Of a DNA stretch of 64,000 nucleotides, positions 938 to 23,507 are shown piece after piece. The notes beneath the pieces were generated by a model. The model made no database searches, was not told the origin of the DNA, and was given only the letters and a program-made list of their open reading frames with translations. Every line of letters starts with the position of its first letter. Positions within the stretch are counted from its first letter, which is position 1. The position numbers and the translations under genes were made by a program. This DNA is from Magnetococcales bacterium DCbin2 (GTDB lineage Bacteria; Pseudomonadota; Magnetococcia; Magnetococcales; UBA8363): assembly GCA_002753615.1 (NCBI GenBank), contig PEAO01000001.1, positions 28,319 through 92,318 of the forward strand, in the 5' to 3' direction.

Positions 938-3217
938 ATGGGAGGTGTATCGCCACGGAACCGCCGTCTGGAAGCTACGAAACCGTCGCCTGGGTGGATG
1001 GGGGGGAGGTTGGCTGATGCCAAGGTTCTACTACCCCTGGGGTTGGTACTGATATTCCTGCTTGTTTTTTTCCATTCTGCAAGTGAAGCCTTGTCGGAAC
1101 CGAATCAAAATGAATCTCCTCAAGGTAATGCGGCTACTGGGAAGGAGCCTACGCGCCTGACGGCTGACACATTGAATGACCCTCATGGAGTTCCGTGGGA
1201 TAAGGTTAAGGCCGATAAGAAAACCGGCAGGGCCTCGTACAATATCGAACTTGGGCGTCTTTTATGGGGCCTGCTTCAGGGTAACACCACCGTTGATCTG
1301 ACCATTAAAATTGAAGGTCAGTTGATAGAAAAGGAAGAGGATAGTGCTAAAGCCCTGAATGAAAAAGTCTCCTACGACTTGCGGGAACTGACTGTCCAGG
1401 GAGCTTTCGAGAGACTTTTGAGGAAACATAATCTGTCTTTTCATTACGATGGAGAGAAGGAAGAAATTAACATTTTCAAAAATCAGGGGAGGCCCCAGTC
1501 CACAGGTGGGGGTGCCACGACAGAAAAGGATGAGACCGTTGCTGCACCGAAGGAAAACAATAAAACTTTAATCCATACATTTGCCAATCCTGAGATGGTA
1601 AATAAGCTGAAATTTGCACTGAGTCGAATGAATATTAGTGCAACGGATACCTCCTTTACTGTTATTGATGAGGTTACTGTTTTATTCCGGGGGCCTGATT
1701 CTATCATCAATGACGTCGGCACTATCGTTAGGGGTTTGCAGGAAAAGGAAACCAGGGAAGCTGTCAAAGTCGGAATCATAACAAATGATGTAAAAGAAAC
1801 GATTGACACTATTATGAAAAGGAATAAGTTAAAGTGTTCCTTGTCGGTGGAGGAGCAGCAATCGACTGAAATAATTTGGTCGGGTAATACAAAAAAAGGA
1901 CCAACCGAAGTATTCTGGCTCAGTGATACAGAGTGCGGGTTCAAGAGGAAGATAAGTCTCGGCAACGCCGTAGCCGACACGATTATGGAACCTATCCAGA
2001 CCATGATCGACAAGGTTTATCGCATTATTGATGTGAAGCCGGCGGAGCAGGAGTTGACTGCGAAAAATGTAGAACCAAAGGCAGAATCGACAGGGGGCTA
2101 TTCTTCGGCAGATCCAAAAAACAACCCTATCGTATTGCAGTTCCAATCGTCTGCCGAGCAAAAGAAGCAGCCATCATTTCCCGTCGTTGTGAGGGATCCG
2201 ACGTGCAATGGATTGATTATATACGCCACGAACATTGATCACATTCCAGCACTTTCAGAACTCATTAAAGATTTGGATCAACCGGCCCAGTTAGTCGAAA
2301 TCGAGGTCATGATTGTGGAGGCGCAGAAAAATCTGCTGCGTTCCCTGGGGACAAAGTTGGGGGGGAGTGCCTATCCCACGATAGTCACCAAAGATACTAC
2401 CAATACTTCCAGTATTTCCAATTTATTCGATGGAAACAGAGGGGACCATGCCAGTGTGATTTCCCCCCTGACGAGTGGGGCTTCCTTGGGTTTCCTTTAT
2501 CAGGGGTCGCGAAATCTCCTGGACGCCACTCTGTCTGCATTTGCCCGCGACAATCTTCTGGAACAGGTGGCATCGCCCAAGGTTGTTGTCCTCAATGGAA
2601 AATCTGCTGAAATCAAGAGTGCCGACCAGCAAAGTTTTCGGGTGGAAGGGAGTGCTTTAACCAATCCACCAACCAATGATAGCTATCAAACTGTGGATAC
2701 CGGTGTTGAGATCAACATTACCCCGACTGTGGTGAGTGGTAACCCGACGGAGCCACAGATGGATGGAAAGAAATTTATACAATTAATAATTCATGCGCAA
2801 AATAGTTCGGTCAATCCACAAACTTTGGCGGCATTTTCTCAAAATTCGCAAACAATGGATAGTGTCGTGATCGTCCCGGTGAACTCTACCTTCATTGTCG
2901 GCGGGCTTTTCAAGACAACTCGGGAGGAAATAGAGGCTGGGGTTCCCTATCTCAAGGAAATACCCCTTTTAGGCGGACTTTTTAAGGAAAATAAATCGGA
3001 AGATCGAACCAGAGAGACTATCTTTTTCATCACTCCGCGTTCCCATTCCATCAGCCTCAATGACAGACAGTCCCAAGACTTGGCTTCTCTTATCGGAGGA
3101 AAAGAAATGAAAGCTTATGTCGTGAAGAAAAAAGGTGAACTTGGCCGGGATCAGGCGGAAATAATCAAAAATAGTAAGCTGATCGACATCAAAGATCATT
3201 GGCAGGAGGATGAATAG
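938..3217 (+). CDS. Secretin (GspD/PilQ family outer-membrane channel)
   Basis: 759-aa ORF with a purine-rich RBS (ggaggagagggg) directly before ATG 938. Signal-like segment LLPLGLVLIFLLVFFHSASEA. C-terminal secretin core LVEIEVMIVEA ... GVPYLKEIPLLGGLFK ... ETIFFITPR. Confidence 0.88.
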   Translation: MGGVSPRNRRLEATKPSPGWMGGRLADAKVLLPLGLVLIFLLVFFHSASEALSEPNQNESPQGNAATGKEPTRLTADTLNDPHGVPWDKVKADKKTGRASYNIELGRLLWGLLQGNTTVDLTIKIEGQLIEKEEDSAKALNEKVSYDLRELTVQGAFERLLRKHNLSFHYDGEKEEINIFKNQGRPQSTGGGATTEKDETVAAPKENNKTLIHTFANPEMVNKLKFALSRMNISATDTSFTVIDEVTVLFRGPDSIINDVGTIVRGLQEKETREAVKVGIITNDVKETIDTIMKRNKLKCSLSVEEQQSTEIIWSGNTKKGPTEVFWLSDTECGFKRKISLGNAVADTIMEPIQTMIDKVYRIIDVKPAEQELTAKNVEPKAESTGGYSSADPKNNPIVLQFQSSAEQKKQPSFPVVVRDPTCNGLIIYATNIDHIPALSELIKDLDQPAQLVEIEVMIVEAQKNLLRSLGTKLGGSAYPTIVTKDTTNTSSISNLFDGNRGDHASVISPLTSGASLGFLYQGSRNLLDATLSAFARDNLLEQVASPKVVVLNGKSAEIKSADQQSFRVEGSALTNPPTNDSYQTVDTGVEINITPTVVSGNPTEPQMDGKKFIQLIIHAQNSSVNPQTLAAFSQNSQTMDSVVIVPVNSTFIVGGLFKTTREEIEAGVPYLKEIPLLGGLFKENKSEDRTRETIFFITPRSHSISLNDRQSQDLASLIGGKEMKAYVVKKKGELGRDQAEIIKNSKLIDIKDHWQEDE

Positions 3218-3250: not shown

Positions 3251-4006
3251 TTGTTATTGCAAATGGATATTATTAATAAAATGTATCGTTTAAAATTTAT
3301 GCTAAGTATTTTTATTATGGTTTTGGTGGTTTACGGTTGCGTTACTCCCGTCATCGAAGATCCTCAAGATGTTCAAGAGGACGACATCACAAGAGTGACT
3401 CCTGACTCTGCGGGCGTCCCGGTATGGACTGTTGGTGAAAGATGGGAATACAGCGATGGTTATGCGTTGGAGGTGGAGAGTGTTTCCAAGGAAGACGGCA
3501 CTTTGCGGGGTGATCATGAACCTTATCCCCCCGAAAATACATTGACACGCTTCAAGGTAACACTGCCGGGCGAAAGTTCCATGGAGTTTCGGGAGGATTC
3601 CTGGATAGTCTGTAAGGGTTTTTTTAAAGTTGAGTCAAATTTTAGCGGCGAACACAGGAAGAATGTCTTCGTTTCTGAAAAGCCAGACCAATTATTTCCT
3701 TTATCCGTTGGGAAATCGGTGACTTATGACCGCGAATTTCTTCGGAATGGAAAACTTATCAAACATCGTAGTTCCTGGCAGGTGATAGACTACCAACCCA
3801 AAGTAACAATCTCCAATCATGATTATGGGTGCTGGATTCTGGAATGGCAAACCGATTCTTTGCAAAGTGATTGGAGTGGACATGAAACTTGGTGGTATTG
3901 CCCAGAGATCAATAACTATGCGCGGATGGAATACCGTTATGGCGAAAATGAGACTTCTTCCCGAGTGTTGATCAAATACTCTCACCCTAACAAGCATGAC
4001 CAATAA
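3251..4006 (+). CDS. Hypothetical lipoprotein (possible pilotin/accessory protein of the secretin)
   Basis: N-terminus MLSIFIMVLVVYGC resembles a lipobox signal. Lies 33 nt after the secretin stop. Likely true start is ATG near 3281 (MYRLKF...). No recognisable catalytic motif. Confidence 0.5.
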   Translation: MLLQMDIINKMYRLKFMLSIFIMVLVVYGCVTPVIEDPQDVQEDDITRVTPDSAGVPVWTVGERWEYSDGYALEVESVSKEDGTLRGDHEPYPPENTLTRFKVTLPGESSMEFREDSWIVCKGFFKVESNFSGEHRKNVFVSEKPDQLFPLSVGKSVTYDREFLRNGKLIKHRSSWQVIDYQPKVTISNHDYGCWILEWQTDSLQSDWSGHETWWYCPEINNYARMEYRYGENETSSRVLIKYSHPNKHDQ

Positions 4007-4072: not shown

Positions 4073-4690
4073 ATGGCTCGGACAGGACAGTGCAAGGAGA
4101 CGGTGATGGCCATTGAGAATAGAAAGGTGGGTCGGTTTGGGAGTCAAGGGGGTTTTACACTGGTGGAGTTGATGGTTGTGGTGACGATCATTGCAATCCT
4201 CTCTGCGGTCGGACTTCCCAGGTTGTATAAATATGTCCGCTCCAGCGAAGCGACCCAGGCATTGGAGGTTTCAGGTTGGATCGTCAAGGCAATTCATGGG
4301 TATGTGGACTCCCAAAGCAATACCCCCATCGACCAGTTGAATGCGCTCCTTAAGCCGGGGTCTGTGGGTAATCTGAACAGTGGTTCTCCAGACAAGGAAA
4401 TTTCCACTCTGATTCCGCACCTGACAGGGCCTCGTGAAGTAAAATTTCAGTACGAGATCAACGCTATCGTACAAGCGAACCACGATGTTTGGATTTGTGT
4501 CAAGTCGTGGGACAAAAAGGCAGACGGGGGGGGGGATCCCAACGCCTACATTCTTTATTCGGGGGCGGAATCGGCCAATCCTAACTGGCAGGGGCACTCG
4601 TTTTTGGCCAAGTATGTGGATGTTGCTGCTACGGCGATTCCCGGTGGTAACTGTGATGCCAATGGCGGAGCGGTCGCTGACCAGGATTGA
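4073..4690 (+). CDS. Prepilin-type N-terminal cleavage/methylation domain protein (major pilin/pseudopilin candidate)
   Basis: GG/FTLVELMVVVTIIAILSAVGLP: class III signal followed by a hydrophobic helix with Glu at +5. Alternative start ATG 4106 gives a 16-aa leader. Confidence 0.85.
   Translation: MARTGQCKETVMAIENRKVGRFGSQGGFTLVELMVVVTIIAILSAVGLPRLYKYVRSSEATQALEVSGWIVKAIHGYVDSQSNTPIDQLNALLKPGSVGNLNSGSPDKEISTLIPHLTGPREVKFQYEINAIVQANHDVWICVKSWDKKADGGGDPNAYILYSGAESANPNWQGHSFLAKYVDVAATAIPGGNCDANGGAVADQD
4526..4535 (+). repeat. Homopolymeric G10 tract inside the pilin CDS
   Basis: gac ggg ggg ggg gat encodes D-G-G-G-D (ADGGGDP); ten consecutive G. Confidence 0.9.
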
Positions 4691-4714: not shown

Positions 4715-7309
4715 GTGGTCTTAGTCATGAATGGAAGTCATTATCTGCGTGTGACCTACCATATGGAAAGCGGTAATCCGAAAAGTTGCTGCTTTGAAAT
4801 GACCATGAAGGGTCCCAGATCGTTAGTTCTTGGCGGTTTGGGTCCCGACTATCCGAGATTCAATGATTTTGCTCTGTGTCATCCGAAATTTCCCTTGCCG
4901 TATCGGTTTTGTCTTCTGTCTCGATGCATGGATGGGAACGGGGGGTGGAAGTGGCAAATTCTTGATTTGGTGCCTAAGCGTAGTTGGGGGCGTGATCCTG
5001 CCAGGACGCAAGATTTGCGACCTTCCCAGGCCGTATGTTTCTTGGAAAAGGGGAATGTGCGGGTGGGTTACGAGCTGCTGGATGTGAAAAATGGCGATAA
5101 AGTTGTCATTCGCCCCCCCCACGGCAAGGGGGGGGGCGGTTCTCGGAATTTGCCAAGTATTGAACTAGAAATTCTCCATGTTCGTCCTGCTGGAAATTGC
5201 CAACGGGTTGAATATGATGGAAAAACAATGATCTGCGATCCTCAGGTCGAACTGGGTGGGTCAGGCTCTCCTTCGGTCAGTTGGAAAACCTTGATCTCCG
5301 ATCTCCATTGGGAGGATCTGTTGAGTGGGGTTATCAGTAATGAAATATATGATATATTTAATTATTTAAGACGAATCAAAGCGATAAAGAAAGGTGCTTT
5401 TTGGCAGCAAGACCAGAGCGAAAAAGAGTTGCGTGCTAAGTTTAAACATTTGAACAAGGTCATGGCTGAGAAATACACCAAGATTTATTCAAAGTGGGTT
5501 TTTGAAGTAAAAGATGAAGAAGAAAAATTAAAATCTGGTGCTATGCGGATCCTTAATCAGGATTTGACATCTTTTTTCCGTTTTCTTATGCGCATCTTAC
5601 AGCTTTATCAACTAGGACCGGAGCGAGTCAGAATCATCCAATGGGCTGGTTGGAAGACCGGGATACCCGTTTTCGTGGGTGATGCCATGGAAAAGGTATT
5701 GAAAGATATGGAGGGGGTTCCGAAAGGTCGTGGCGGTGCTTCAGGCAAGGGAAATGAGGCTGATGCCAACAAAGCTTCGGACAAAAAAGACTTGCCCCTC
5801 ATTATTTACACGAGGAAAAATCTAAAATATTTGGATAAATATCCTAAGGAAGTTTTGGACAGGTTTGGAATCATTCCTCTGGCCTCCTCGGTACGCCAGG
5901 ACCGTCATTATTGGGCGGTGCTGGATCCTTTCGATCAGGGGTGGCGATTTTTTATGGATGCGTTACGGCAGCCCAATGAACCGGAATATTTGCATGTGGT
6001 GGATATCGCAGATTACGACCAGTTCCGAGGCGAGATGGGAAAACGTCTGGATTATCGCCAAACTTCTGGGGATGGCGCATCGGTGGAGGATGGAAGCCAG
6101 GAATTGCCGTACGAAGCCATTCCAGATCGTATGCTGAAAATGTTGCAGGATGCCCAGGATCAACGGGCTTCCGATATCCATATTGAGGCGGACGATGAGA
6201 AAGGTGTTGTCCGTTTCCGGGTGGATGGCGTATTAAGCGAATATGCCGAATTCGCTAAGGAGACCCATAATGCTATTGTCTCCCATTTTAAGGTGAAAAC
6301 CCAGATGGATGTCACGGAGAAGCGACGGCCCCAGGACGGGCGTTTGACGGTTCATGGGACCGACATCCGAGCCTCAACCTATCCTACTGTCAAGGGAGAG
6401 AAATTTGTTTTGAGGTTGTTGGACCAGGAGGGGATCAAGAAGTCTACCGATTATTTGGGAATGCTCAGCATGGACTTGCAGCTTTTGCGTACCAACATCC
6501 ACAATCCCAGTGGTCTGATTCTTATCTGCGGTCCTACGGGTTCTGGGAAGACCACGACTCTCTACGCTTGCCTTTCGGAGTTGAACACACGCGAAAGCAA
6601 TATCATGACTATTGAAGAGCCGGTGGAATATCAACTGCATGGAATCAACCAGATGCAGGTGAGGACCGACATCGATCTTACTTTTGAAAAGGGTTTGCGG
6701 ACCATCCTCAGACAGGATCCCGACATCATCATGGTGGGGGAGATTCGCGACAGCAACACCGCCAACACCGCCATTCAGGCAGCCATGACGGGGCACCTCG
6801 TTTTATCCACCATCCATACCAATTCAGCACCCCAGGCAATAGGGCGGTTGTTGGAGATGGGGGTAGAGCCTTATATGATTACTTCCGCTCTGAATCTTAC
6901 GGTGTCTCAAAGACTGGTGCGTCGGGTCTGTTTGTCCTGCCGCAAACCGATATCGGGCGCGGAAATCAGGAGAAAAATGGATGATAATGGTTTTGATTAT
7001 GGCCATTTTGTCCAGACTTTTGGAATGGATATCCCTCTTCAAGATTATTTCTATGAGGCTGACCCGCATGGTTGCGAACAGTGTTTTAATCGTGGCTACC
7101 AGGGGCGGATGGCCATTTTTGAAACTTTTAATATGAATCGGGAAGTACGAGACTGTATTCATGCCAAAAAGACCGATACCGAGGAATTATGGGAGGCTCT
7201 GCGTGGTCCCAGGTGGAAGGAGATGACTCTTTGGGCACATGCGCGTTCTTTGTTGATGCGGCAAGGGGTGACGACATTCGATGAAATCACCCGCGTCATG
7301 GGGTATTAG
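4715..7309 (+). CDS. GspE/PilB-family secretion ATPase with a long unrecognised N-terminal extension
   Basis: Walker A GPTGSGKTTTLYA, Walker B/Asp box IIMVGEIRD, His box LVLSTIHTN, tetracysteine CLSC...CEQC. T2SSE_N-like segment YPKEVLDRFGIIPL...AVLDPFD. The preceding ~365 aa have no motif I can name. Confidence 0.9.
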   Translation: MVLVMNGSHYLRVTYHMESGNPKSCCFEMTMKGPRSLVLGGLGPDYPRFNDFALCHPKFPLPYRFCLLSRCMDGNGGWKWQILDLVPKRSWGRDPARTQDLRPSQAVCFLEKGNVRVGYELLDVKNGDKVVIRPPHGKGGGGSRNLPSIELEILHVRPAGNCQRVEYDGKTMICDPQVELGGSGSPSVSWKTLISDLHWEDLLSGVISNEIYDIFNYLRRIKAIKKGAFWQQDQSEKELRAKFKHLNKVMAEKYTKIYSKWVFEVKDEEEKLKSGAMRILNQDLTSFFRFLMRILQLYQLGPERVRIIQWAGWKTGIPVFVGDAMEKVLKDMEGVPKGRGGASGKGNEADANKASDKKDLPLIIYTRKNLKYLDKYPKEVLDRFGIIPLASSVRQDRHYWAVLDPFDQGWRFFMDALRQPNEPEYLHVVDIADYDQFRGEMGKRLDYRQTSGDGASVEDGSQELPYEAIPDRMLKMLQDAQDQRASDIHIEADDEKGVVRFRVDGVLSEYAEFAKETHNAIVSHFKVKTQMDVTEKRRPQDGRLTVHGTDIRASTYPTVKGEKFVLRLLDQEGIKKSTDYLGMLSMDLQLLRTNIHNPSGLILICGPTGSGKTTTLYACLSELNTRESNIMTIEEPVEYQLHGINQMQVRTDIDLTFEKGLRTILRQDPDIIMVGEIRDSNTANTAIQAAMTGHLVLSTIHTNSAPQAIGRLLEMGVEPYMITSALNLTVSQRLVRRVCLSCRKPISGAEIRRKMDDNGFDYGHFVQTFGMDIPLQDYFYEADPHGCEQCFNRGYQGRMAIFETFNMNREVRDCIHAKKTDTEELWEALRGPRWKEMTLWAHARSLLMRQGVTTFDEITRVMGY
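5113..5136 (+). repeat. C8 and G9 homopolymer tracts 7 nt apart inside the ATPase N-extension
   Basis: cgc ccc ccc cac ggc aag ggg ggg ggc encodes RPPHGKGGG. Confidence 0.9.
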
Positions 7310-7313
7310 GCCC

Positions 7314-8357
7314 ATGGCCCGCATTCGTCCTCGCTCCTTGCTTTTTTTTACCCGACAGTTTTCTTCGATGGTGAACAGTCACCTGCGGCTCAAGCAGATT
7401 CTGGAATCCATGGCGAATGATCCGAGTACGGACAAAAATATGAGGCCTGTATTACGACATCTATCGGATTCACTGGACCGGGGTATGGATCTTGATGTGG
7501 CGATGGGTAGTCGCAGAGATGTTTTCAATCAAGATTATATTTCTATTGTTCGATCGGGAGTGCAGTCCGGCAAATTGGGATCGGCACTGGAGCATCTAAC
7601 CAAATATCTGAGTGAAGCGCATCAAAATCGGAGCAAGCTGCTGACGGCCATCTCTTATCCCGTATTTATTTTTATAATTTTTCTGATCATGTTTCATATC
7701 ATGGTGTTTTTTATCCTGCCAAGATTTGAACTTATTTTTAAGGAGTTTGATAAGCCACTCCCGGAACTGACCCGGTGGGTGTTGGCATTCAGTCATTTTT
7801 ATCTTGAACACCTGACGATCATCATAACCTTGCTGGTACTGCCGGTGACCATGTTTCTGACTACCCGAATGAGTTCAAAGTGGCGACTGATCTGGGACAC
7901 GTACAAGTTGAACGTCCCCATTCTAGGATCCTTGTGGAAACTGTCGGCCCTGCACCGCTTTTTAAGTAGTCTCGGACTACAGGTAAAAAATGGCGTTTTG
8001 ATCGTGGATGCCATTCCGCTTGCCGGGAGTGCTGCCAACAATCTTTTTCTTAGAAGCATCTCTGATCAGGTGAAGCAAAGTCTCCAGGATGGTGCTTCTG
8101 TGACGGTGGCTTTTTCCCCCCACCCCCTTTTCCAAGGCGTTGCCCTCCAGATGATCCGCGCAGCCGAGGAGAGTGGTGTCATGGCCGAACCGTTGATTTC
8201 CACCGCAGACCATTTCAATGAACTGCTTCAGAGTCGGATACAGGTCATTACCGATCTGGTGACACCGATTCTGACCATTATTCTTGGGATGATCATTACT
8301 ATGATGCTTATTTCAGCCTTTCTGCCTGTATTCGAACTGGGAGGGTTACAGAGATGA
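7314..8357 (+). CDS. GspF/PilC-family inner-membrane platform protein
   Basis: Polytopic membrane protein with hydrophobic helices (LTAISYPVFIFIIFLIMFHIMVFFILP; LVTPILTIILGMIITMMLISAFLPV) and helical cytoplasmic repeats typical of T2SS protein F. ATG 7314 lies 4 nt after the ATPase stop (the track ORF begins at 7281). Confidence 0.8.
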   Translation: MARIRPRSLLFFTRQFSSMVNSHLRLKQILESMANDPSTDKNMRPVLRHLSDSLDRGMDLDVAMGSRRDVFNQDYISIVRSGVQSGKLGSALEHLTKYLSEAHQNRSKLLTAISYPVFIFIIFLIMFHIMVFFILPRFELIFKEFDKPLPELTRWVLAFSHFYLEHLTIIITLLVLPVTMFLTTRMSSKWRLIWDTYKLNVPILGSLWKLSALHRFLSSLGLQVKNGVLIVDAIPLAGSAANNLFLRSISDQVKQSLQDGASVTVAFSPHPLFQGVALQMIRAAEESGVMAEPLISTADHFNELLQSRIQVITDLVTPILTIILGMIITMMLISAFLPVFELGGLQR

Positions 8358-16649: not shown

Positions 16650-17777
16650 ATGATTTCCTTTGAAAATATCAAAAAACAAGTTTTGCACCCACGACGGTTT
16701 GTTAAAGAAAATAATACGTCCATTATGGTGTTTATAGCATTTGTGGCATGGCCAATCTTGGGGGCCTTTTTCTTTACGAGTTACCCCAAAATTGATTCGA
16801 TCACCAGCCAGAGCGACGCGGCAGTTTGCTCTGATACACAGTTGAGTTTTATTTTGCAATCACGGAAAAATAATACAAATCAGTCCGATGATAATCCAAC
16901 GACATTGTTAATCCAAAATATAAAAGATGCGGCCAGGGGTGCGGGTGTTGCGGAGTTGAAGAATTTGCAGGTTGTTGTTAAGGGAAAGGACAAGGGGGTG
17001 GTCGATGTCAGTTATGATGGCACGTATGAGAAATTCGTTAGGATGGTGAATCAATTGGAAGAGAATGGCCATCAAATATCCGAGATGTCCCTGGAATTCC
17101 TAAAGGAAGAGGGTAATATTGATTTACTGGCGATACGTTTTTCTCTAGAACATACCAATTTCCCTAATTTTCATAGAGATTTGAATGGTTTTAAAAATAT
17201 TCCAAATGAGCTTTCCGATTTTATTGGTAAAAATGCCCAAGGGCAGCAGGATGCCAATGGAGATTCCAGTCTATACTCAAAAGATAATTGTAACTTCGAC
17301 GTGAAAGAAATCAAGTCTGCGGTTGGTTCGTTTCCGTCAGGTAGCGTACCAGCCGAATTTAAAAAAATATTTGATGAATTGGCTACGGTAGTGAAATATA
17401 ATATAGATCAGAGGAATATTGTTGACCAGATTGCCAGTATTTCTGAAAAAACACCTCAACAGGATATCATCTTATCATTCAGGAATCCGTTTCATGAGTA
17501 TATTCGGTATTTTGAGAAAAATTATCTGAAGGTTCCAGATTATTATAAATTAGACAGGATTGATATTGTCGATAATTCCAAACAAGCTGATATCAACGGT
17601 ATCAGGTATGTCGTTGGTGACAGATTTCCTCGTAATGCCCACCATAAAGATGGTACCGCATTCTCCAACCTGGATACCCTGGTGGTTCGAGAAATAGATC
17701 CGGGAGGGTTTGTCCTTTTCCGTCAGGATAATGTTTATCCTTCTTACCTATTGCTTCCAAAGTTAAAGAAACTATAG
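16650..17777 (+). CDS. N-terminally anchored membrane protein in the GspM / PilO position
   Basis: RBS ggagga about 12 nt upstream. TM IMVFIAFVAWPILGAFFF near the N-terminus. The N/K/D-rich remainder has no recognised motif. Confidence 0.4.
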   Translation: MISFENIKKQVLHPRRFVKENNTSIMVFIAFVAWPILGAFFFTSYPKIDSITSQSDAAVCSDTQLSFILQSRKNNTNQSDDNPTTLLIQNIKDAARGAGVAELKNLQVVVKGKDKGVVDVSYDGTYEKFVRMVNQLEENGHQISEMSLEFLKEEGNIDLLAIRFSLEHTNFPNFHRDLNGFKNIPNELSDFIGKNAQGQQDANGDSSLYSKDNCNFDVKEIKSAVGSFPSGSVPAEFKKIFDELATVVKYNIDQRNIVDQIASISEKTPQQDIILSFRNPFHEYIRYFEKNYLKVPDYYKLDRIDIVDNSKQADINGIRYVVGDRFPRNAHHKDGTAFSNLDTLVVREIDPGGFVLFRQDNVYPSYLLLPKLKKL

Positions 17778-17818: not shown

Positions 17819-18205
17819 ATGAGTAAGATAAAAGAGATAAGATTGGACGAAGAGACTACTTTTTTCGTCCAGGTTGTGGACGATGAAGATGAAGTGGAGT
17901 GGCTGGATTCTTCAACGGAACAGGAAGAGTCTGGGGGACTGATCCGAGCCGGCCGGCGGGAAGAATCTTTGACCAAAAGAGTCTCCGTTTCGATGACGGA
18001 TGCCCTGACGGCGGTCTATCCGGTGATAGAAAAGGTTGTGGAAAAGTTTCGTGCCATCGATCCTTCGGAGTGCCGGGTCTCTTTTGGCCTGAAAGTTCAT
18101 GGCAATGTGGGGGTTGTCTTGGTCTCCGAAGTGGGGGTTGAAGCACAGTTGAAGGTAACCTTGCGTTGGCGTAAACCTAAGGCAAAAAAACAAAAAACAT
18201 CATAA
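17819..18205 (+). CDS. Small acidic protein resembling Trypco1 (trypsin-co-occurring domain 1 / CU044_2847-like)
   Basis: 128 aa. Acidic N-half (VVDDEDEVEWLDSSTEQEESG). C-terminal VSFGLKVHGNVGVVLVSEVGVEAQLKVTLRW matches my recollection of the Trypco1 signature (EFGLK...G...A.L.V.L.W). Sits immediately upstream of a trypsin-like protease gene. Confidence 0.6.
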   Translation: MSKIKEIRLDEETTFFVQVVDDEDEVEWLDSSTEQEESGGLIRAGRREESLTKRVSVSMTDALTAVYPVIEKVVEKFRAIDPSECRVSFGLKVHGNVGVVLVSEVGVEAQLKVTLRWRKPKAKKQKTS

Positions 18206-19663: not shown

Positions 19664-20668
19664 ATGTCTGATCTTTATACCGTCGATGGCCCGTCTCCTC
19701 AGGAACCGACAGCATGGAAGCCGATTCCCCTGAAAAACGTTTTGCAAGATTCCACCGGTTATCGGCCCGATCCGGGATTGGTGGATGCCGTCAATGTGGC
19801 CCTGACTCTGGGTATGCCCTTGTTGGTTACCGGGGAACCTGGTGTGGGCAAGACCGCCCTGGCAGATAGTGTGGCACGCCGTCTGGGGTTGGGAGATCCT
19901 TTAAAGTTTGTCGCTAAGAGCGAATCCCGCGCCTCGGATCTTTTTTTCACCTATGATCGTCTGCTCCGGTTTCAAGAGAGTCACTGTACGAATGAGCCAT
20001 TGGATTTTAAGAAGTATATTAGTTATGTCGCCCTGGGGCAGGCTATTCTGAACAGTCGCAGCCGAGAAGAATGGGGTGGCTTGTTGGATGGAAAGCCTCA
20101 TGACGGACCCAAACGGAGCGTCGTGCTGATTGATGAAATCGACAAGGCCCCACGAGATTTTGTCAACGATCTCTTGGTGGAGATTGAACGACTGGCCTTT
20201 CCGCCCCTGCCGGACATGCCTAACCAGATGTCCATGGAGGCTGACCCGAATCTGGCCCCGGTGGTGATTATCACCAGCAACCAGGAACGTTCCCTGCCAG
20301 ACCCCTTTCTACGCCGTTGTGTCTACTATCATATCCCTTTTCCCAACCACAAACAGTTGCAGGAGATTGTGGAAGTACGGATGAAAAAACTGTTCAACCC
20401 ACAAACTCAACCTGCTTGGCTGGCTCGCGCTATGGAGCTTTTCTGGTGGTTGCGGGAAGGGGTGAAACCGGAACTGCGTCGGAAACCAGGACTGGGAGAA
20501 CTCCTGACTTGGTTGGTTTTTCTTGGAGAACGAGCCATCGGGCAAAGTTCTCTGAAAGATTCCTTTTTGTTTGAAACTGCCTGTCCGTTGATGCTGAAAA
20601 CCAGCCTTGATCAGGGACGGCAAGAGGCTCTTATCAAGGTGTGGACGTCCAGTTCCAAACAAGGGTGA
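19664..20668 (+). CDS. MoxR-type AAA+ ATPase
   Basis: Walker A LLVTGEPGVGKTALA, Walker B VVLIDEIDKAPRDFVNDLL, sensor region VVIITSNQE, single AAA+ module of about 330 aa. Confidence 0.85.
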   Translation: MSDLYTVDGPSPQEPTAWKPIPLKNVLQDSTGYRPDPGLVDAVNVALTLGMPLLVTGEPGVGKTALADSVARRLGLGDPLKFVAKSESRASDLFFTYDRLLRFQESHCTNEPLDFKKYISYVALGQAILNSRSREEWGGLLDGKPHDGPKRSVVLIDEIDKAPRDFVNDLLVEIERLAFPPLPDMPNQMSMEADPNLAPVVIITSNQERSLPDPFLRRCVYYHIPFPNHKQLQEIVEVRMKKLFNPQTQPAWLARAMELFWWLREGVKPELRRKPGLGELLTWLVFLGERAIGQSSLKDSFLFETACPLMLKTSLDQGRQEALIKVWTSSSKQG

Positions 20669-20672: not shown

Positions 20673-23507
20673 GTGGCTGAAGAAAATGATCATCGCTTGC
20701 CCGATCCCACTGTATTTCTCCTGCAATGGCGGCACTACGGCCATCCCCTGACTCTGGAACGGTTGGTGGTGGTCCAACGTCTGTTGCTGGATCTGGCGGC
20801 ACGCGGCAATTTGCCTGCGGACCCTCGGCGATGGGCAGGGTTGCTTGCCCCTCTTTTTTGTCAATCCGCCGAGGAGCAGGAGACGTTTCACCAAAGCTAT
20901 GGCAAATGGTTGGATGGGTGGACTTCGAGTACTCATCCAAACCCTCAGGGAATACCAACATCCCCTGGCCAACCCCGCCCCTCCGTCCTGAAACAGGCTC
21001 TCAAGACCGCTCAACAGCCTCTACGATCATGCATTCACCTCTTTTCTGGGTTGCGCAACCGATGGTGGGATTATCTAAGACAGGTCGTCCTGTTCTTTTT
21101 GATCGCCGGTGTTTCCATCGCGTTGATCGCCGGTGTTTCCATCGCGGGTTATGCCGTGATCATGGGAGCAATATACGTTCCGTCTGGGGATCCTTTCTTG
21201 TTCCGGCGGCTATTGTTGGCCGGAATTGCGGTCGCTACCGCTTCTATCGTATTGAGGCAGCAACGGCGAAACCCGCGTTCATGGTTGTCGCGCCAGCCTG
21301 ATTCGGGGAGTATCACAGAATCTTTTCCCCTCTACCTGAGTCGTGATGGTCTGGGCGATCTTAGCCGTGAGGCCCGTGAGACTGCCAGATATTTACGTCA
21401 ACGTGAGGCAATTTTGACTCGGGATCTGGATGTGGAAGCTTCTCTGAAAGCCACACTGGACCAAGGTGGTTTGCCTACCCCCATTTTGGGGAAACGCCAT
21501 AAGGTACCGGAATATCTGGTCCTCGTGGATCGGCGCAATCTTCGGGATTCCCAAGCCGGCATGACCATGAAGTGGCTTGAATGGTTGCGCGAAGAGGCTG
21601 TTGAAGTCTCCAGTTGGACCTTTCATGGGGATCCTCGGTATTGCTCTCCAACGGATCCAGATGAGGCGTCCTGTTCGCTGGAGACTCTGCTGGCGCGCTA
21701 TCATGATCGGCGATTGTTGATCTTTGCCGAATCTCGCCTTTTCTTCGATTATGCACGGGGACTTTTTCAGCCCTGGGTGGCAGAGTTGGATGATTTCCCT
21801 TGGAAACTCCTGGCCGTCCCTGAAAATCCAGGGGCATGGGGGTTCCGGGAAAGGGGTATCCAGGGGTTGGGCATGATGGTTGCGCAAGCCAGCGTCTCCG
21901 GGTTACAACAGGCCATCGCGCGTCGTTCTGAATCCCTGCCGAGTGGACTGCCGCTGCCGGAACCCTCTACCGCCAATCCCTTTCCCCCTTTGTTGGCCGA
22001 CGATGATTTTTCCTGGCTGGGCGGGGCGACCCCAGAGCGTAAAAACATTGCTCGCCTGATGAGAGAGTTGGAACAATACCTCTCGGATGGTGGTGTGTCC
22101 TGGTTGCGGGCTTGCGCTATCTATCCAGAGTTGGATTGGCGTTTGACTTTACAATTGGGGAGCCGGTTGTCCGACCCCGATGGCCGAACGCTGTTTTCTC
22201 AGGATACCCTTCTCCGCCTGACTCGGCTTCCCTGGTTTCGTCTCGGTAGTATGCCCCTCTGGCTACGCCGGGAGTTGATTCGGAGTATAAACCGCAGGCA
22301 ACGTTCCAAAATACGCAAACTGATCTGGTCGTCCTTGTTAGAGGGGCGTGAGCATAAGGATCTCGCCTTATTGCTATCATCAGCCCACATTTCTTCTTTC
22401 AGTACCATGTTCAAAGCTTGGCTCAATCGTCAGCCCGATAGGGAACCTATGCGAGATAAGCTTTTTGTCTCCTTTCTATTGGGTTGGCGGCACTGGAACT
22501 ACCCCTTACCCCTTCCGCCGATGGAATTGATTTCGAGATGGAATACAACAGGATGGGAAATCGCTATGGGCTTGATGTCGGGAATGACGGTATTCCTGGT
22601 GATCACCGCGCCATCCACCCTGTTGACCATTACCGTTGCCTCTGGATTTGTTGGGTGGGTTGCCTTTTTTATCTGGAATACACGGAGCATTGCGCCTCTC
22701 TCTCTTGTTTCTCCATCGGTGACAAATTTATCTTCCGCCAAGCCCATGGTCCCACAAGAACCACAGCCCTTTGAAGTATGGCAGGATCATGTGAGTAAAA
22801 TGATGTTCGTTTGGATTCCACCGGGGCAATTCACTATGGGGAGTCCAGCGGATGAAAAAGGGCGGTCTTCCGATGAAGGTCCAGAACATGAGGTGGAGAT
22901 ATCGGGGTTTTGGTTGGGAAAATATGAGGTAACGCAGGGGGAATGGGAACGATTCATGGGGGAAAACCCCTCGCGTTTCAAAAAAGGGGATCGTTACCCG
23001 GTTGAACAGGTATCCTGGGACGATGTGCAGAAATTTATCTATAGGTTGAACATTGCAGGGGATGGTGGGTATCGTTTGCCAACGGAAGCGGAGTGGGAAT
23101 ATGCGTGCCGAGGAGGGACACGGACGCCGTTCTCATTGGGTGAGACTTTGATTGCGGGCACGGATGCCAATTTTGATGGAAGACAAGTTTCTCAACCTGA
23201 GGGTGTCCAAGGGGTTTATTGCGGGGAAACCATGCCGGTGGGGAGTTTCCCGGCCAATTCCCGGGGATTGCATGATATGCACGGAAATGTTTGGGAGTGG
23301 GTACATGACAGTTATGTTTCGGAAGCGTACTCGAACCATGCGCCTCAGGATCCATGCATTGACATAGACCGATCCAGCCGCATTCGTCGTGGCGGGGCAT
23401 GGGTTGGTGAAGTTAAGAACCTGCGTTGCGCCTCCCGCAAAAGTCTTGCCCACGACGACCGTGGTCACCATATCGGGTTTCGTCTTGCTAAAAATCACAA
23501 GGCGTAA
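20673..23507 (+). CDS. Polytopic membrane protein with a C-terminal FGE-sulfatase (SUMF1/EgtB/PvdO-like) domain
   Basis: GTG 20673 lies 4 nt after the MoxR stop (track ORF starts 20607 inside moxR). TM clusters VVLFFLIAGVSIALIAGVSIAGYAVIMGAIYV, LLLAGIAVATASIVL and WEIAMGLMSGMTVFLVITAPSTLLTITVASGFVGWVAFFIW. C-terminal FGE motifs listed in the domain entry. Confidence 0.8.
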   Translation: MAEENDHRLPDPTVFLLQWRHYGHPLTLERLVVVQRLLLDLAARGNLPADPRRWAGLLAPLFCQSAEEQETFHQSYGKWLDGWTSSTHPNPQGIPTSPGQPRPSVLKQALKTAQQPLRSCIHLFSGLRNRWWDYLRQVVLFFLIAGVSIALIAGVSIAGYAVIMGAIYVPSGDPFLFRRLLLAGIAVATASIVLRQQRRNPRSWLSRQPDSGSITESFPLYLSRDGLGDLSREARETARYLRQREAILTRDLDVEASLKATLDQGGLPTPILGKRHKVPEYLVLVDRRNLRDSQAGMTMKWLEWLREEAVEVSSWTFHGDPRYCSPTDPDEASCSLETLLARYHDRRLLIFAESRLFFDYARGLFQPWVAELDDFPWKLLAVPENPGAWGFRERGIQGLGMMVAQASVSGLQQAIARRSESLPSGLPLPEPSTANPFPPLLADDDFSWLGGATPERKNIARLMRELEQYLSDGGVSWLRACAIYPELDWRLTLQLGSRLSDPDGRTLFSQDTLLRLTRLPWFRLGSMPLWLRRELIRSINRRQRSKIRKLIWSSLLEGREHKDLALLLSSAHISSFSTMFKAWLNRQPDREPMRDKLFVSFLLGWRHWNYPLPLPPMELISRWNTTGWEIAMGLMSGMTVFLVITAPSTLLTITVASGFVGWVAFFIWNTRSIAPLSLVSPSVTNLSSAKPMVPQEPQPFEVWQDHVSKMMFVWIPPGQFTMGSPADEKGRSSDEGPEHEVEISGFWLGKYEVTQGEWERFMGENPSRFKKGDRYPVEQVSWDDVQKFIYRLNIAGDGGYRLPTEAEWEYACRGGTRTPFSLGETLIAGTDANFDGRQVSQPEGVQGVYCGETMPVGSFPANSRGLHDMHGNVWEWVHDSYVSEAYSNHAPQDPCIDIDRSSRIRRGGAWVGEVKNLRCASRKSLAHDDRGHHIGFRLAKNHKA
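21101..21148 (+). repeat. Direct in-frame tandem duplication (2 x 24 nt, 22/24 identical)
   Basis: gatcgccggtgtttccatcgcg occurs twice back to back, encoding IAGVSIAL-IAGVSIAG within a predicted TM helix. Confidence 0.9.
22770..23492 (+). other. FGE-sulfatase / SUMF1-like domain
   Basis: FVWIPPGQFTMGS, GFWLGKYEVTQGEW, YRLPTEAEWEYACRGG, GLHDMHGNVWEWV, RIRRGGAW, HIGFRLA. Confidence 0.85.

What the first reader, a model, noticed from the sequence alone, without database searches (positions are those of the whole stretch)
938..23507. Sixteen-gene gap-free array welding a divergent T2SS / type IV filament machine to a cyclase sensor and a protease-MoxR-FGE module
Seen: every junction from 938 to 23507 is at most 66 nt. 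Four junctions are 4-nt ATGA start/stop overlaps or 4-nt gaps (8354/8357, 13268/13271, 13906/13909, 14535/14540, 20668/20673). The only convincing promoter is upstream at 689-717. Gene order secretin - lipoprotein - pilin - E ATPase - F platform - X - pilin - three minor pilins - L-like - M-like mirrors gsp synteny. There is no GspC and no prepilin peptidase. A 1186-aa WD40/cyclase gene is inserted after gspF. Four non-secretion genes (Trypco1-like, trypsin-like protease, MoxR, TM-FGE) follow after only a 41-nt gap. Known: T2SS and T4P operons normally contain only machine components. MoxR/trypsin/FGE cassettes have been discussed as stand-alone conflict systems. Inference: this may be one functional unit in which a filament/secretion nanomachine is coupled to nucleotide signalling and a regulated protease. 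I do not know of a described equivalent.
Basis: partly seen in the sequence, partly recalled or inferred. Interest (0 to 1): 0.88.

Follow-up and report, generated by a model that had tools for sequence, protein, structure and literature searches.

The report
Pilus-type machine with built-in cyclase
The 16-gene array is real but consists of two separate parts: a rare 12-gene pilus/secretion machine that always carries its own cyclase signalling protein, and an ordinary four-gene bacterial defence cassette that sits beside it in this lineage only.

Summary
Sixteen same-strand genes run from 938 to 23507 with tight junctions and one strong upstream promoter-like site.

Genes 1-12 (998-17777) form one conserved unit: secretin, lipoprotein, pilin, GspE/PilB-class ATPase, GspF platform, a 1186-aa cyclase protein, four minor pilins, and two single-pass (bitopic) membrane proteins. 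This unit recurs with the same order and the same 4-nt couplings in two other Magnetococcales lineages. In each lineage it has different flanks and a lower G+C than its surroundings.

The cyclase protein is always present. It reads as WD40-like, degenerate Roc, COR, zinc ribbon, then class III cyclase, that is, a ROCO-type architecture. The 693-aa 'L-like' protein and the full-length cyclase protein were found nowhere else in billions of proteins.

The last four genes (17819-23507) are absent from both other lineages and have host-like G+C. Their AAA+ and large proteins are homologous to iSTAND-type MoxR-vWA conflict systems, which stand alone in unrelated bacteria with no secretion genes nearby. 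That juxtaposition is lineage-specific. Functional coupling through read-through transcription is not excluded.

Verdict: a new variant of a type IV filament machine, plus a new member of a known conflict-system class.

The parts
689..717 (+). Sigma-70-like promoter candidate, TTGACA-17-TAGAAT, followed by a leader of about 220-280 nt
   Evidence: Best match in 24 kb, 11 of 12. Conserved as TTGACA-17-TAGGAT upstream of the L011 ortholog cluster. No Rfam family in the leader.
938..3217 (+). Secretin (759 aa from 938, or 739 aa from 998), with a signal-anchor-like hydrophobic N-terminus and a weak STN/N0-like hit
   Evidence: PF00263, E 4e-29. NCBIfam PilQ 128 bits and GspD 115 bits, both far below their cutoffs. 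STN E 0.007. 50-54% identical to the orthologs.
3263..4006 (+). Lipoprotein (lipobox ...VVYGC), conserved partner gene after the secretin
   Evidence: 62-68% identical in the orthologs. 31% identical homolog at the same position in the Rhodospirillaceae locus L017, where it has a weak DUF3108-like hit. No Pfam or PDB hit of its own.
4106..4690 (+). Major prepilin-type subunit (leader ...SQGG|FTLVELM, Glu5, two C-terminal Cys)
   Evidence: N_methyl E 1.9e-7. 73-78% identical orthologs. Sequence.
4727..7309 (+). GspE/PilB-class assembly ATPase, 860 aa. It has a conserved 465-aa N-terminal extension: an FHA-like start, an unknown middle, then a T2SSE_N/MshEN-like segment
   Evidence: T2SSE E 4e-117. 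GspE 435 bits and PilB 412 bits, both below cutoff. PDB: PilB 307 bits, GspE 299 bits. Extension conserved. Weak positional match to the FHA domain of the L017 ATPase (E 0.24, not significant).
7314..8357 (+). GspF/PilC platform protein, 347 aa
   Evidence: T2SSF E 3e-41. GspF 213 bits, below the 424 cutoff. 72-77% identical orthologs, all with a 4-nt gap after the ATPase gene.
8354..11914 (+). Cytoplasmic 1186-aa protein: WD40-like propeller, degenerate Roc, COR, Cys4 zinc ribbon, class III nucleotidyl cyclase (ROCO-type architecture). Its ATG overlaps the platform gene's stop codon
   Evidence: Guanylate_cyc above cutoff. PDB cyclases Ma1120 and Rv1900c, E 3e-11 to 1e-8. Foldseek of the mid-region model hits LRRK2 and C. 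tepidum Roc-COR, E 1.9e-11 to 2e-8. Conserved with the same overlap in all three lineages. No TM segment.
11975..12613 (+). Prepilin-type subunit 2 (ENG|FTLVELM)
   Evidence: N_methyl E 1.2e-7. 80% identical orthologs. Motif conserved upstream of the orthologs' called starts.
12636..13271 (+). Minor pilin-like 3 (RG|ISLIEVM); the ORF could start at 12597
   Evidence: N_methyl E 1.3e-3. Motif conserved in the orthologs.
13268..13909 (+). Minor pilin-like 4 (SG|STLVELM), ATGA overlap at both ends
   Evidence: N_methyl E 1e-3. 69-72% identical orthologs.
13906..14535 (+). Minor pilin-like 5, with an N-terminal TM segment and no Glu5 (GspK/PilX-like feature)
   Evidence: TM at residues 20-38. No family hit. 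66-72% identical orthologs. Sequence.
14540..16621 (+). Orphan 693-aa single-pass protein: about 500 aa cytoplasmic, one TM (500-518), then a coiled coil and a beta-beta-alpha-beta-beta periplasmic end. Positional and topological analog of GspL or fused PilM-PilN
   Evidence: Only three proteins in 5.8 billion clusters and in an exhaustive HMMER profile search of 1.84 billion representatives. TM. AF2 model is poor (pLDDT 35), so only the secondary-structure pattern is used.
16650..17777 (+). Orphan 375-aa single-pass protein (TM 25-43, the rest periplasmic). Positional analog of GspM/PilO, possibly with an added GspC/PilP-like C-terminal domain (untested)
   Evidence: TM. 48-52% identical orthologs. 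No family or PDB hit. This is the last gene of the conserved unit in all three lineages.
17819..18205 (+). Trypco1 protein, first gene of the lineage-specific conflict module
   Evidence: PF19493, 66.4 bits against a 24.6 cutoff. Trypco1 is defined as a neighbour of trypsin genes in these systems (PMC7159879).
18220..19647 (+). Trypsin-like serine protease (His38, Asp96 and Ser178 present) with a 280-aa C-terminal domain that is probably iSTAND
   Evidence: Trypsin_2 E 3.7e-8. Triad read. iSTAND: Pfam E 0.04; hhalign E 0.018 with a 3-sequence profile, then E 0.0014 (probability 18%) with a 4-sequence profile, collinear over 219 columns.
19664..20668 (+). MoxR-like AAA+ ATPase of the iSTAND ternary-system type
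   Evidence: AAA/AAA_5. 45-50% identical to the AAA+ genes that sit between iSTAND and vWA-position genes in L012, L014 and L015.
20673..23507 (+). 944-aa protein: N-terminal helical domain, 2 TM, vWA-position domain, helical region, 1-2 TM, FGE-sulfatase (FGS, C-type-lectin-fold) domain
   Evidence: FGE-sulfatase E 6e-51. The N-terminal ~650 aa are homologous to proteins at the vWA position of iSTAND trios that carry WD40, TPR, FGE or IcmF-related C-termini. TM segments.
23397..23411 (+). Two-allele hypervariable patch in the FGE domain (RGGAWVGEV here, RGGSWFDDV elsewhere)
   Evidence: These are the only 4 differences in 16-21 kb against three other assemblies. Alleles P0019 versus P0010/P0018.

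Best explanation
Two evolutionary units lie head to tail on one strand.

Unit A (998-17777)
- It is a low-G+C, self-contained island encoding a divergent type IV filament (T4F) machine with a T2SS-like gene layout.
- Shown: it encodes a secretin, a partner lipoprotein, one major and four further prepilin-type subunits, a GspE/PilB-class ATPase with a long conserved N-terminal extension, a GspF-type platform, and two orphan single-pass membrane proteins. The orphans occupy the positions and have the membrane topology of GspL and GspM.
- Shown: a cytoplasmic 1186-aa protein is a fixed member of this unit, and its gene is translationally coupled to the platform gene.
- Shown with caveats: its architecture is WD40-like, Roc-like with all GTP-binding motifs lost, COR, zinc ribbon, then a class III cyclase. 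The cyclase keeps both metal-binding Asp residues, the Lys/Asp pair that specifies adenine, and the catalytic Arg.
- Inferred mechanism: the ATPase and platform polymerise the pilins into a filament that passes through the secretin. The ROCO-type protein is the machine's own regulator. Its propeller binds a cytoplasmic partner or cue, most plausibly the ATPase N-extension or the cytoplasmic part of the 693-aa protein. COR-mediated dimerisation brings two cyclase domains together, which class III cyclases need for activity. The resulting cAMP links filament activity to cell-wide signalling, or the reverse.
- Support from a relative: a Rhodospirillaceae cluster carries a Ser/Thr kinase-FGE protein between the pilin and ATPase genes, a PP2C phosphatase upstream of the secretin, and a true FHA domain on the ATPase. 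This T4F clade seems to take embedded signalling modules that act on the ATPase.

Unit B (17819-23507)
- It is an iSTAND-type MoxR-vWA ternary conflict system with a Trypco1-trypsin pair and an FGS (C-type-lectin-fold) sensor/effector domain.
- It was acquired only in this lineage.
- Following the published proposals, the membrane-anchored FGE protein would sense a ligand, the AAA+ protein would remodel the complex, and the trypsin would be released or activated.
- It probably rides on read-through from unit A's promoter, but it is not part of the machine.
For: Conservation of unit A
- Same 12 genes, order and -4/+4 nt couplings in three lineages at 44-80% protein identity. Flanks differ on both sides.
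- Core G+C is below its flanks in every lineage: 46.5 against 51-52, 46.1 against 53-57, and 41.9 against 52-54.

Rarity
- The L-like protein has only three representatives in 5.8 billion clusters and in 1.84 billion HMMER-scanned representatives.
- The full-length cyclase protein is likewise limited to three.

Cyclase protein
- Pfam hit above cutoff, and PDB adenylyl cyclases at E 3e-11.
- The cyclase domain is the best-conserved part of the protein, 48% invariant.
- D992, K1033, D1037, D1085 and R1096 are invariant.
- Roc-COR: Foldseek hits LRRK2 at 1.9e-11, C. tepidum Roco 6hlu at 2e-8, the COR domain 3dpt at 2.9e-5, and Rab/Rho GTPases at TMt 0.6-0.67.

Related cluster with kinase-FGE, PP2C and FHA-ATPase.

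Unit B
- Absent from the orthologous loci, with host-like G+C.
- The AAA+ is 45-50% identical, and the 944-aa N-region 28-34% identical, to four independent iSTAND / AAA+ / X trios without secretion genes nearby.
- It matches the published description of iSTAND systems: a CoxE-like helical N-terminus, TM segments, FGS as the commonest effector, trypsin fused to iSTAND, and Trypco1 beside trypsin (PMC7159879).
- The trypsin catalytic triad is intact.
Against: - There is no experimental or transcript data. The 41-nt gap at 17777/17819 has no terminator-like site, so co-transcription, and hence some functional coupling in this lineage, is possible.
- Only three lineages are known, all uncultured and related. 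'Always with the cyclase' therefore rests on n = 3.
- The Roc-COR call rests on a low-confidence model (mean pLDDT 46.8, TMq about 0.25).
- The L-like model is unusable (pLDDT 35).
- The GspL/M analogy is by position and topology only.
- No cNMP receptor was found in the cluster.
- The canonical cyclase Asn is replaced by Gly. The active cyclase Ma1120 has Ala at the aligned position.
- The FHA-like reading of the ATPase N-terminus is not statistically supported (E 0.24).
- The iSTAND assignment of the trypsin C-terminus is weak (E 0.0014, probability 18%).
- No Pfam vWA model hits the 944-aa protein.
Confidence: 0.68

Rival explanations
1. One reading: all 16 genes form one functional unit. 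The filament or secretion machine would be coupled to cyclic-nucleotide signalling and to a MoxR-regulated protease. For example, envelope or pilus perturbation by phage would be sensed and answered by proteolysis.
For: - All genes are on the same strand, with a 41-nt gap and no terminator-like site at 17777/17819.
- There is one strong upstream promoter.
- The 944-aa protein is membrane-anchored.
- A distant relative of the cluster (L017) also contains an FGE-domain protein, fused to a kinase, between the pilin and ATPase genes.
- cNMP cyclases and propellers are common parts of such conflict systems (PMC7159879).
Against: - The module is missing from both other lineages that keep the complete 12-gene cluster. 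One of them lives in the same metagenome, 3300003895.
- The module's G+C matches the host, not the core.
- Its homologs are stand-alone trios with no secretion genes in the flanks.
- The FGE domain in L017 sits in a different protein architecture.
Confidence: 0.12
2. The WD40 / pseudo-Roc / COR / cyclase gene is itself a self-standing sensor or conflict gene of STAND/ROCO type with a cyclase output. It would merely be lodged in the island and inherited with it, with no role in the filament machine.
For: - Sensor repeat, NTPase-like switch and cyclase architectures are typical of conflict and signalling proteins (PMC7159879).
- No cNMP receptor lies in the cluster.
- PADLOC and the secretion-family models do not recognise it.
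Against: - The position between gspF and the minor pilins, and the ATGA overlap with gspF, are kept at 44-50% protein identity in three lineages. Hitch-hiking genes are not expected to keep these.
- No homolog exists outside these clusters.
- A relative of the cluster has a different signalling set in the same neighbourhood: kinase-FGE between the pilin and ATPase genes, PP2C, and an FHA domain on the ATPase.
Confidence: 0.15
3. Unit A is a classical type II secretion system whose GspC, L and M are too divergent to recognise. The cyclase protein would be a secreted or accessory substrate-handling factor.
For: - Five prepilin-type genes followed by two single-pass membrane protein genes mirror gspG-H-I-J-K-L-M.
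- There is no retraction ATPase.
- GspE and GspF are the top NCBIfam hits.
Against: - All NCBIfam equivalog scores are far below cutoff, and PilQ and PilB score as well as GspD and GspE.
- The pilins are about 180-190 aa, and the major one has a C-terminal Cys pair typical of true pilins.
- The cyclase protein has no signal peptide or TM segment, so it is cytoplasmic.
- No GspC was detected.
Confidence: 0.05

Closest known systems
Type II secretion system (Gsp) and type IVa/MSH pili, i.e. the type IV filament superfamily
   Same: It has a secretin, a GspE/PilB-class ATPase with a tetracysteine motif, a GspF/PilC platform, and five class III signal-peptide subunits (four with Glu5, one without). 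Two single-pass inner-membrane proteins follow in the GspL and GspM positions. The gene order of minor pilins followed by L and M is as in gsp operons.
   Different: - Every component scores far below the NCBIfam equivalog cutoffs.
- It is equidistant from T2SS and T4aP.
- The L and M analogs are sequence orphans.
- No GspC/PilP, prepilin peptidase or PilT is present in the cluster.
- The ATPase has a 465-aa N-extension.
- A ROCO-type cyclase gene is a fixed member of the cluster.
Myxococcus xanthus Kil Tad-like system (PMC8460266), and the T6SS PpkA/PppA/Fha1 pathway cited in it
   Same: These are envelope nanomachines whose gene clusters contain signalling proteins, and in Kil the central ATPase carries an FHA domain. 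The related Rhodospirillaceae cluster L017 has exactly kinase, PP2C and FHA-ATPase.
   Different: Kil is Tad-type (CpaF ATPase, Flp pilin). The cluster here is GspE/PilB-type. Its FHA-like region is degenerate, and the embedded signalling protein is a cyclase, not a kinase.
ROCO proteins (C. tepidum Roco, LRRK2)
   Same: The Roc-COR tandem fold is the top Foldseek result. Repeat sensor domains flank it, and an enzymatic output domain follows it.
   Different: The G1, G3 and G4 GTP-binding motifs are lost in all three orthologs, so it would be a pseudo-GTPase. The output is a class III cyclase. The gene is embedded in a T4F operon. The structural model is of low confidence.
iSTAND-type MoxR-vWA ternary conflict systems (Kaur, Burroughs, Iyer, Aravind 2020, PMC7159879)
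   Same: The AAA+ is 45-50% identical to those of iSTAND trios. The large protein is homologous to their vWA-position component, with an N-terminal helical domain, TM segments and a C-terminal FGS domain. A trypsin is fused to an iSTAND-like C-terminal domain. Trypco1 is the neighbour of the trypsin gene.
   Different: The iSTAND and vWA domains are too divergent for Pfam thresholds. The module sits directly behind a T4F operon without its own obvious promoter. No DGR was found, although the FGE domain has a hypervariable patch.

Membership tests
Type II secretion system (Gsp) | GspD secretin, GspE ATPase and GspF platform at equivalog level | tested here: not met
   Pfam domains are present, but the NCBIfam equivalog scores are 115/351 (GspD), 435/630 (GspE) and 213/424 (GspF). 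PilQ and PilB score equally well.
Type II secretion system (Gsp) | One major and four minor pseudopilins with a prepilin-type signal | tested here: met
   There are five genes. Four have a G|(F/S/I)xLxE motif and one lacks Glu5. The pilins are longer than typical GspG.
Type II secretion system (Gsp) | GspC, GspL and GspM assembly-platform proteins | tested here: inconclusive
   No family, NCBIfam or PDB profile hit. Two single-pass proteins have the right position and topology. The AF2 model is unusable. GspC was not found.
Type II secretion system (Gsp) | Prepilin peptidase GspO/PilD | tested here: not met
   No Peptidase_A24 among the Pfam-scanned long ORFs of the 64-kb window, nor in the precomputed Pfam lists of the orthologous loci. 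It could be encoded elsewhere in the genome.
Type IVa pilus | PilM-N-O-P-Q set, PilB and PilT retraction ATPase | tested here: not met
   PilB scores 412 against a 675 cutoff and PilQ 128 against 284. There is no second PilT-type ATPase and no PilM/N/O/P families in the cluster.
Class III nucleotidyl cyclase | Catalytic domain with two metal-binding Asp residues, substrate-specifying residues and a transition-state Arg and Asn | tested here: met
   PF00211 scores 27.3 bits against a 21.9 cutoff. It aligns to Ma1120 and Rv1900c. D992, D1037, K1033, D1085 and R1096 are invariant in three orthologs. The Asn position is Gly, and Ala in Ma1120. Activity itself was not tested.
ROCO proteins | Roc GTPase domain immediately followed by a COR domain | tested here: inconclusive
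   Foldseek of the AF2 mid-region hits LRRK2 at 1.9e-11, CtRoco 6hlu at 2e-8, COR 3dpt at 2.9e-5 and Rab/Rho at TMt 0.6-0.67. The model's mean pLDDT is 46.8. No Pfam Roc or COR hit.
ROCO proteins | Functional GTP-binding motifs (G1 GxxxxGK[ST], G3 DxxG, G4 NKxD) | tested here: not met
   The G1 position reads GDEPEITR, GMESLTST or GDEPYTSN. The G3 and G4 positions are not conserved in any ortholog.
iSTAND MoxR-vWA ternary system | MoxR-clade AAA+ ATPase gene adjacent to the vWA component | tested here: met
   AAA/AAA_5. 45-50% identical to AAA+ genes flanked by iSTAND and vWA-position genes in L012, L014 and L015. The same trio layout is seen in L042.
iSTAND MoxR-vWA ternary system | vWA component with a variable C-terminal effector (FGS is the commonest) | tested here: inconclusive
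   The N-terminal ~650 aa are homologous to proteins in the vWA position of four trios. The FGE domain is clear. No Pfam vWA model hits, and no structure was obtained.
iSTAND MoxR-vWA ternary system | Third component with an iSTAND domain, often fused to a peptidase | tested here: inconclusive
   Pfam iSTAND E 0.04, 14.7 bits against a cutoff of 24. hhalign E 0.018, then E 0.0014 at probability 18%, collinear over 219 columns. A CHAT-iSTAND precedent exists in L042.
iSTAND MoxR-vWA ternary system | Trypco1 or Trypco2 gene next to the trypsin gene | tested here: met
   PF19493 scores 66.4 bits against a 24.6 cutoff, 14 nt upstream of the trypsin gene. The rule is stated in PMC7159879.
Diversity-generating retroelement target | VR/TR repeat pair and a nearby reverse transcriptase | tested here: not met
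   No TR-like repeat in 64 kb. No YxDD ORF in the window. No RT family in the Pfam-scanned window ORFs or in the 10 kb upstream of the window. The rest of the genome was not seen.

The most novel reading that the evidence does not exclude
The 12-gene unit would be a previously unclassified subtype of type IV filament machine. A pseudo-GTPase ROCO-type adenylyl cyclase would be a stoichiometric cytoplasmic part of the assembly platform, so that filament extension or load is read out as cAMP, or gated by it. In the window's lineage this machine would have captured an iSTAND protease system. Its hypervariable FGE sensor would then be expressed with the filament and would guard it, for example against pilus-targeting phages.
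Probability: 0.12. Interest if true: 0.8.

Novelty: new variant of a known kind. Interest (0 to 1): 0.55.

Why it matters
If the cyclase protein really is a working part of the machine, it would be an example of a type IV filament system with a built-in second-messenger generator. It would also be a bacterial ROCO-type protein with a clear genomic partner. That would give a direct way to study how Roc-COR scaffolds control an output domain, and how pilus or secretion activity is tied to cAMP. I found no described equivalent in three literature searches.

The related kinase / PP2C / FHA version suggests a wider, unrecognised clade of filament machines regulated through the ATPase N-terminus.

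The 3' module shows that tight same-strand spacing alone does not define a functional unit. It also offers a natural two-allele variant of an FGE-type sensor.

Tried and rejected
- Genome scan with the cyclase alignment: no relatives among 185,579 species representatives.
- Metagenome scan with the platform alignment: 19 loci, all generic PilB/PilC pairs at 22-30% identity with no other cluster gene.
- PDB profile searches with the ATPase N-extension, the L-like protein, the M-like protein and the lipoprotein: nothing meaningful.
- AF2 of the L-like protein: pLDDT 35, so no fold search was attempted.
- PADLOC: nothing for the cyclase, L, M, Trypco1 or FGE proteins. Only weak domain-level hits for the trypsin (LmuA, 2.8e-6) and the AAA+.
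- Rfam on 1-24000 and on the 5' leader: nothing.
- DGR hypothesis for the FGE patch: no template repeat and no reverse transcriptase in the window or 10 kb upstream.
- Assembly chimera at the core/module junction: rejected, because three other assemblies are identical across it.
- Plasmid origin: the lipoprotein has no tblastn match in PLSDB.
- Link to the mitochondrial T2SS and its WD40 'Gcp' proteins (PMC8134430): considered only because of shared keywords. Gcp1-3 are Pex7-like eukaryotic paralogs, so this was not pursued.
- FHA identity of the ATPase N-terminus: hhalign against the L017 FHA domain gives the right position but E 0.24, so it is not claimed.

Full report
**1. What is in the sequence**

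The window comes from an uncultured magnetotactic-type bacterium. Identical genes occur in MAGs GCA_015234035.1 and GCA_003483605.1, in JGI metagenome 3300003895, and in Logan assemblies of two sequencing runs. Sources label the organism 'Nitrospirae bacterium' or 'Magnetococcales bacterium'.

Start codons were refined using the orthologs. ATGA overlaps lie at 8354, 13268 and 13906.

The site at 689-717 (TTGACA-17-TAGAAT) is the best promoter-like match in 24 kb. It is conserved upstream of an orthologous cluster. Overall counts of promoter-like and terminator-like sites equal chance, and none lies in a junction. No Rfam family matches.

**2. The decisive comparison**

The 693-aa 'L-like' protein has exactly two relatives among 5.8 billion protein clusters. 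An exhaustive HMMER profile scan of 1.84 billion representatives adds none. The full-length cyclase protein shows the same pattern. All relatives are from Magnetococcales MAGs.

Their loci are L004/L011 (GCA_015228815.1), and L005/L009 and L008 (GCA_015234015.1 and GCA_015229035.1). They contain the same twelve genes in the same order:
- secretin, lipoprotein and pilin;
- ATPase and platform;
- the WD40/cyclase gene;
- four pilin-like genes;
- the 663-674-aa and 368-376-aa single-pass membrane proteins.

Protein identity to the window is 44-80%. The short couplings are the same, including the 4-nt overlap between the platform and cyclase genes.

The flanks differ on both sides in every lineage:
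- Window: REC-GGDEF upstream; downstream of the whole 16-gene array, DUF2461 and others.
- L011: GcvP-enolase upstream, RecQ and others downstream.
- L008: an integrase fragment upstream, opposite-strand genes and rpsB-tsf downstream.

The twelve genes also have lower G+C than their surroundings in all three lineages: 46.5 against 51-52%, 46.1 against 53-57%, and 41.9 against 52-54%. The twelve genes are therefore one inherited unit.

None of the other lineages has the Trypco1-trypsin-AAA-FGE genes (tblastn). One of them (L006) was recovered from the same metagenome as the window's population (L002). The module's G+C (52.0%) equals the host background, not the core. The core/module junction is identical in three other assemblies, so it is not a chimera.

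**3. The core machine**

It is a type IV filament system with a T2SS-like layout, but it belongs to no curated family.
- NCBIfam equivalog scores are far below cutoff for GspD, PilQ, GspE, PilB, GspF and PilC.
- PDB comparison puts the ATPase equally close to PilB (307 bits) and GspE (299 bits).
- Five genes encode prepilin-type subunits. Four have G|(F/S/I)xLxE and one lacks Glu5. The motifs are conserved in the orthologs, even where gene callers truncated them.
- The 693-aa protein has about 500 cytoplasmic residues, one TM segment, then a predicted coiled coil and a beta-beta-alpha-beta-beta end.
- The 375-aa protein has an N-terminal TM segment and a periplasmic body.

This is the topology of GspL (or fused PilM-PilN) and GspM/PilO. 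There is no sequence evidence for that assignment, and the AF2 model is too poor to use (pLDDT 35). No GspC/PilP, prepilin peptidase or PilT-type ATPase was found in the window or in the orthologous loci.

The ATPase carries a 465-aa N-terminal extension, conserved in all orthologs. Its last ~100 residues look like a T2SSE_N/MshEN segment (my reading of the sequence). Its first ~110 residues resemble a degenerate FHA domain by eye.

**4. The cyclase protein**

It has no TM segment or signal peptide, so it is cytoplasmic. The C-terminal domain is a class III cyclase (Pfam above cutoff; Ma1120 and Rv1900c, E 3e-11 to 1e-8). It is the best-conserved part of the protein.

Five catalytic residues are invariant:
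- both metal-binding Asp residues (D992, D1037);
- the adenine-specifying Lys/Asp pair (K1033, D1085);
- the catalytic Arg (R1096).

The canonical Asn is Gly. Ma1120 has Ala at the aligned position. That Ma1120 is an active adenylyl cyclase is my own knowledge.

The N-terminus gives weak WD40/propeller hits.

An AF2 model of residues 366-985 is of low confidence (pLDDT 46.8). Even so, it gives a coherent Foldseek result:
- LRRK2 Roc-COR, E 1.9e-11;
- C. tepidum Roco LRR-Roc-COR, E 2e-8;
- an isolated COR domain, E 2.9e-5;
- many Rab/Rho GTPases covering the first ~220 residues, TMt 0.6-0.67.

This agrees with the sequence ('KVLLVGDEPE...'). The G1, G3 and G4 motifs are lost in all three orthologs, so the Roc-like domain would be a pseudo-GTPase. 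A Cys4 zinc-ribbon-like motif lies between the COR-like region and the cyclase.

Inference: COR is a dimerisation device (cited in PMC7159879), and class III cyclases act as dimers (established knowledge). The architecture therefore suggests a sensor-controlled dimerisation switch for cAMP synthesis, attached to the filament machine.

**5. A more distant relative points the same way**

The only other related cluster found is in a Rhodospirillaceae MAG (L017). Identities to the window are platform 36%, lipoprotein 31%, pilin 35% and ATPase C-terminal domain 45%.

Its gene order is PP2C phosphatase, secretin, an unannotated 160-aa ORF, lipoprotein, pilin, Ser/Thr kinase fused to FGE-sulfatase, FHA-MshEN-T2SSE ATPase (952 aa), then platform.

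This T4F clade therefore tolerates or requires signalling proteins inside the cluster, acting on an ATPase N-terminal module. The window ATPase aligns to that FHA domain at the right place but without significance (E 0.24). Published precedents for such embedded signalling are the Kil Tad-like system and the T6SS threonine-phosphorylation pathway (PMC8460266).

**6. The 3' module**

The N-terminal ~650 residues of the 944-aa protein are homologous to proteins with WD40, TPR, FGE or IcmF-related C-termini. Each such protein is preceded by an AAA+ gene. Three of these AAA+ proteins (L012, L014, L015) are 45-50% identical to the window's. The AAA+ gene in turn is preceded by a DUF4062-iSTAND or CHAT-iSTAND gene. 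None of these loci has secretion genes in the 8-10 kb flanks shown.

This is the iSTAND class of MoxR-vWA ternary conflict systems. Its published description includes:
- a CoxE-like helical N-terminus;
- TM segments in about 28% of systems;
- FGS as the commonest effector, in about 22%;
- peptidases fused to iSTAND;
- Trypco1 or Trypco2 beside trypsin genes (PMC7159879).

The window trypsin keeps its catalytic triad. Its C-terminal 280 residues match iSTAND weakly but collinearly (Pfam E 0.04; hhalign E 0.0014). The module is a new member of a known kind.

**7. How the two parts relate**

Shown: they are separate evolutionary units, and the module is lineage-specific.

Not excluded: read-through transcription from the core promoter across the 41-nt AT-rich gap, and hence co-expression.

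The FGE domain in L017 belongs to a kinase, which is a different architecture. It is only a faint hint of a recurrent link between FGE sensors and this machine.

**8. Seen in passing**

The window differs from three other assemblies of the same population at only four positions in 16-21 kb. All four lie within 15 nt of the FGE domain (23397-23411), changing RGGSWFDDV to RGGAWVGEV.

By my own estimate, four random differences falling within 15 nt of a 21-kb stretch has a probability of about 1e-9. This looks like a diversifying ligand site of a C-type-lectin-fold sensor. Such domains are DGR targets in related systems (bioRxiv 10.1101/2023.09.22.558884). No template repeat or reverse transcriptase was found within reach.

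**9. Verdict**

The interesting object is smaller than claimed, but it is real. It is a very rare, mobile-looking type IV filament island whose fixed gene set includes a ROCO-type adenylyl cyclase and two orphan platform proteins. The protease-AAA-FGE cassette is an ordinary conflict system parked behind it.

Novelty: a new variant of a known kind. Interest: 0.55.

Noticed in passing
window 23397-23411: Four SNPs within 15 nt are the only differences from three other assemblies over 16-21 kb. They change residues 909-913 of the FGE domain (AWVGE against SWFDD). The patch resembles a DGR-type or otherwise diversifying ligand site, but no template repeat or reverse transcriptase was found in the window or 10 kb upstream.
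   Followed up: partly
L017 540-11038 (Rhodospirillaceae MAG CAYFPL010000003.1): A related filament cluster carries a PP2C phosphatase, a Ser/Thr kinase fused to an FGE-sulfatase domain, and a 952-aa ATPase with a true FHA domain and an MshEN-like segment. No minor pilins or L/M-like genes follow the platform gene.
   Followed up: partly
window 998-17777; L011 2589-19232; L008 1734-18445: The 12-gene core has 5-11 points lower G+C than its flanks in all three lineages and sits in a different genomic neighbourhood each time. An integrase fragment or integrase gene lies nearby in two of them. This suggests a horizontally moving island.
   Followed up: partly
window 1-216 and L039 1-9280 (upstream of the window): Directly upstream lie a hemerythrin gene and a REC-GGDEF gene on the same strand. 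Further upstream, on the opposite strand, are a PAS hybrid histidine kinase, Hpt, REC, an HD_5 (HD-GYP-like) protein, two more small N_methyl (pilin-like) genes and a transposase. This may be c-di-GMP control of the cluster.
   Followed up: no
window 25964-30976 (- strand), repeats at 28705-29347 and 29401-29604: A 1670-aa FecR/cadherin-like protein contains three 276-nt spaced repeats and a 12-nt tandem array of about 12 or more units (a Gly/Thr/Pro-rich linker on the coding strand).
   Followed up: no
L042 6959-14422 (Acidobacteria MAG JACQZR010000215.1): An iSTAND trio in which the third component is CHAT-iSTAND. The vWA-position protein, homologous to the window's 944-aa N-region, carries T6SS_VasE and IcmF-related domains at its C-terminus. 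It is not inside a T6SS cluster.
   Followed up: no
window 689-717 against L011 ~2380-2410: The -35 and -10 hexamers and their 17-nt spacing are conserved between two lineages (TTGACA...TAGAAT against TTGACA...TAGGAT), although the surrounding intergenic DNA is otherwise poorly alignable. The third lineage (L008) lacks a clear counterpart.
   Followed up: partly
whole window (source records): Identical proteins are labelled 'Nitrospirae bacterium' in one NCBI MAG record and 'Magnetococcales bacterium' in nr. The taxonomic assignment of the source MAG is inconsistent between records.
   Followed up: no
window 58135-62007 (- strand): A 1290-aa protein whose only recognisable domain is a C-terminal HD domain. 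Its region has a noticeably lower G+C (41-46%) than its neighbours.
   Followed up: no
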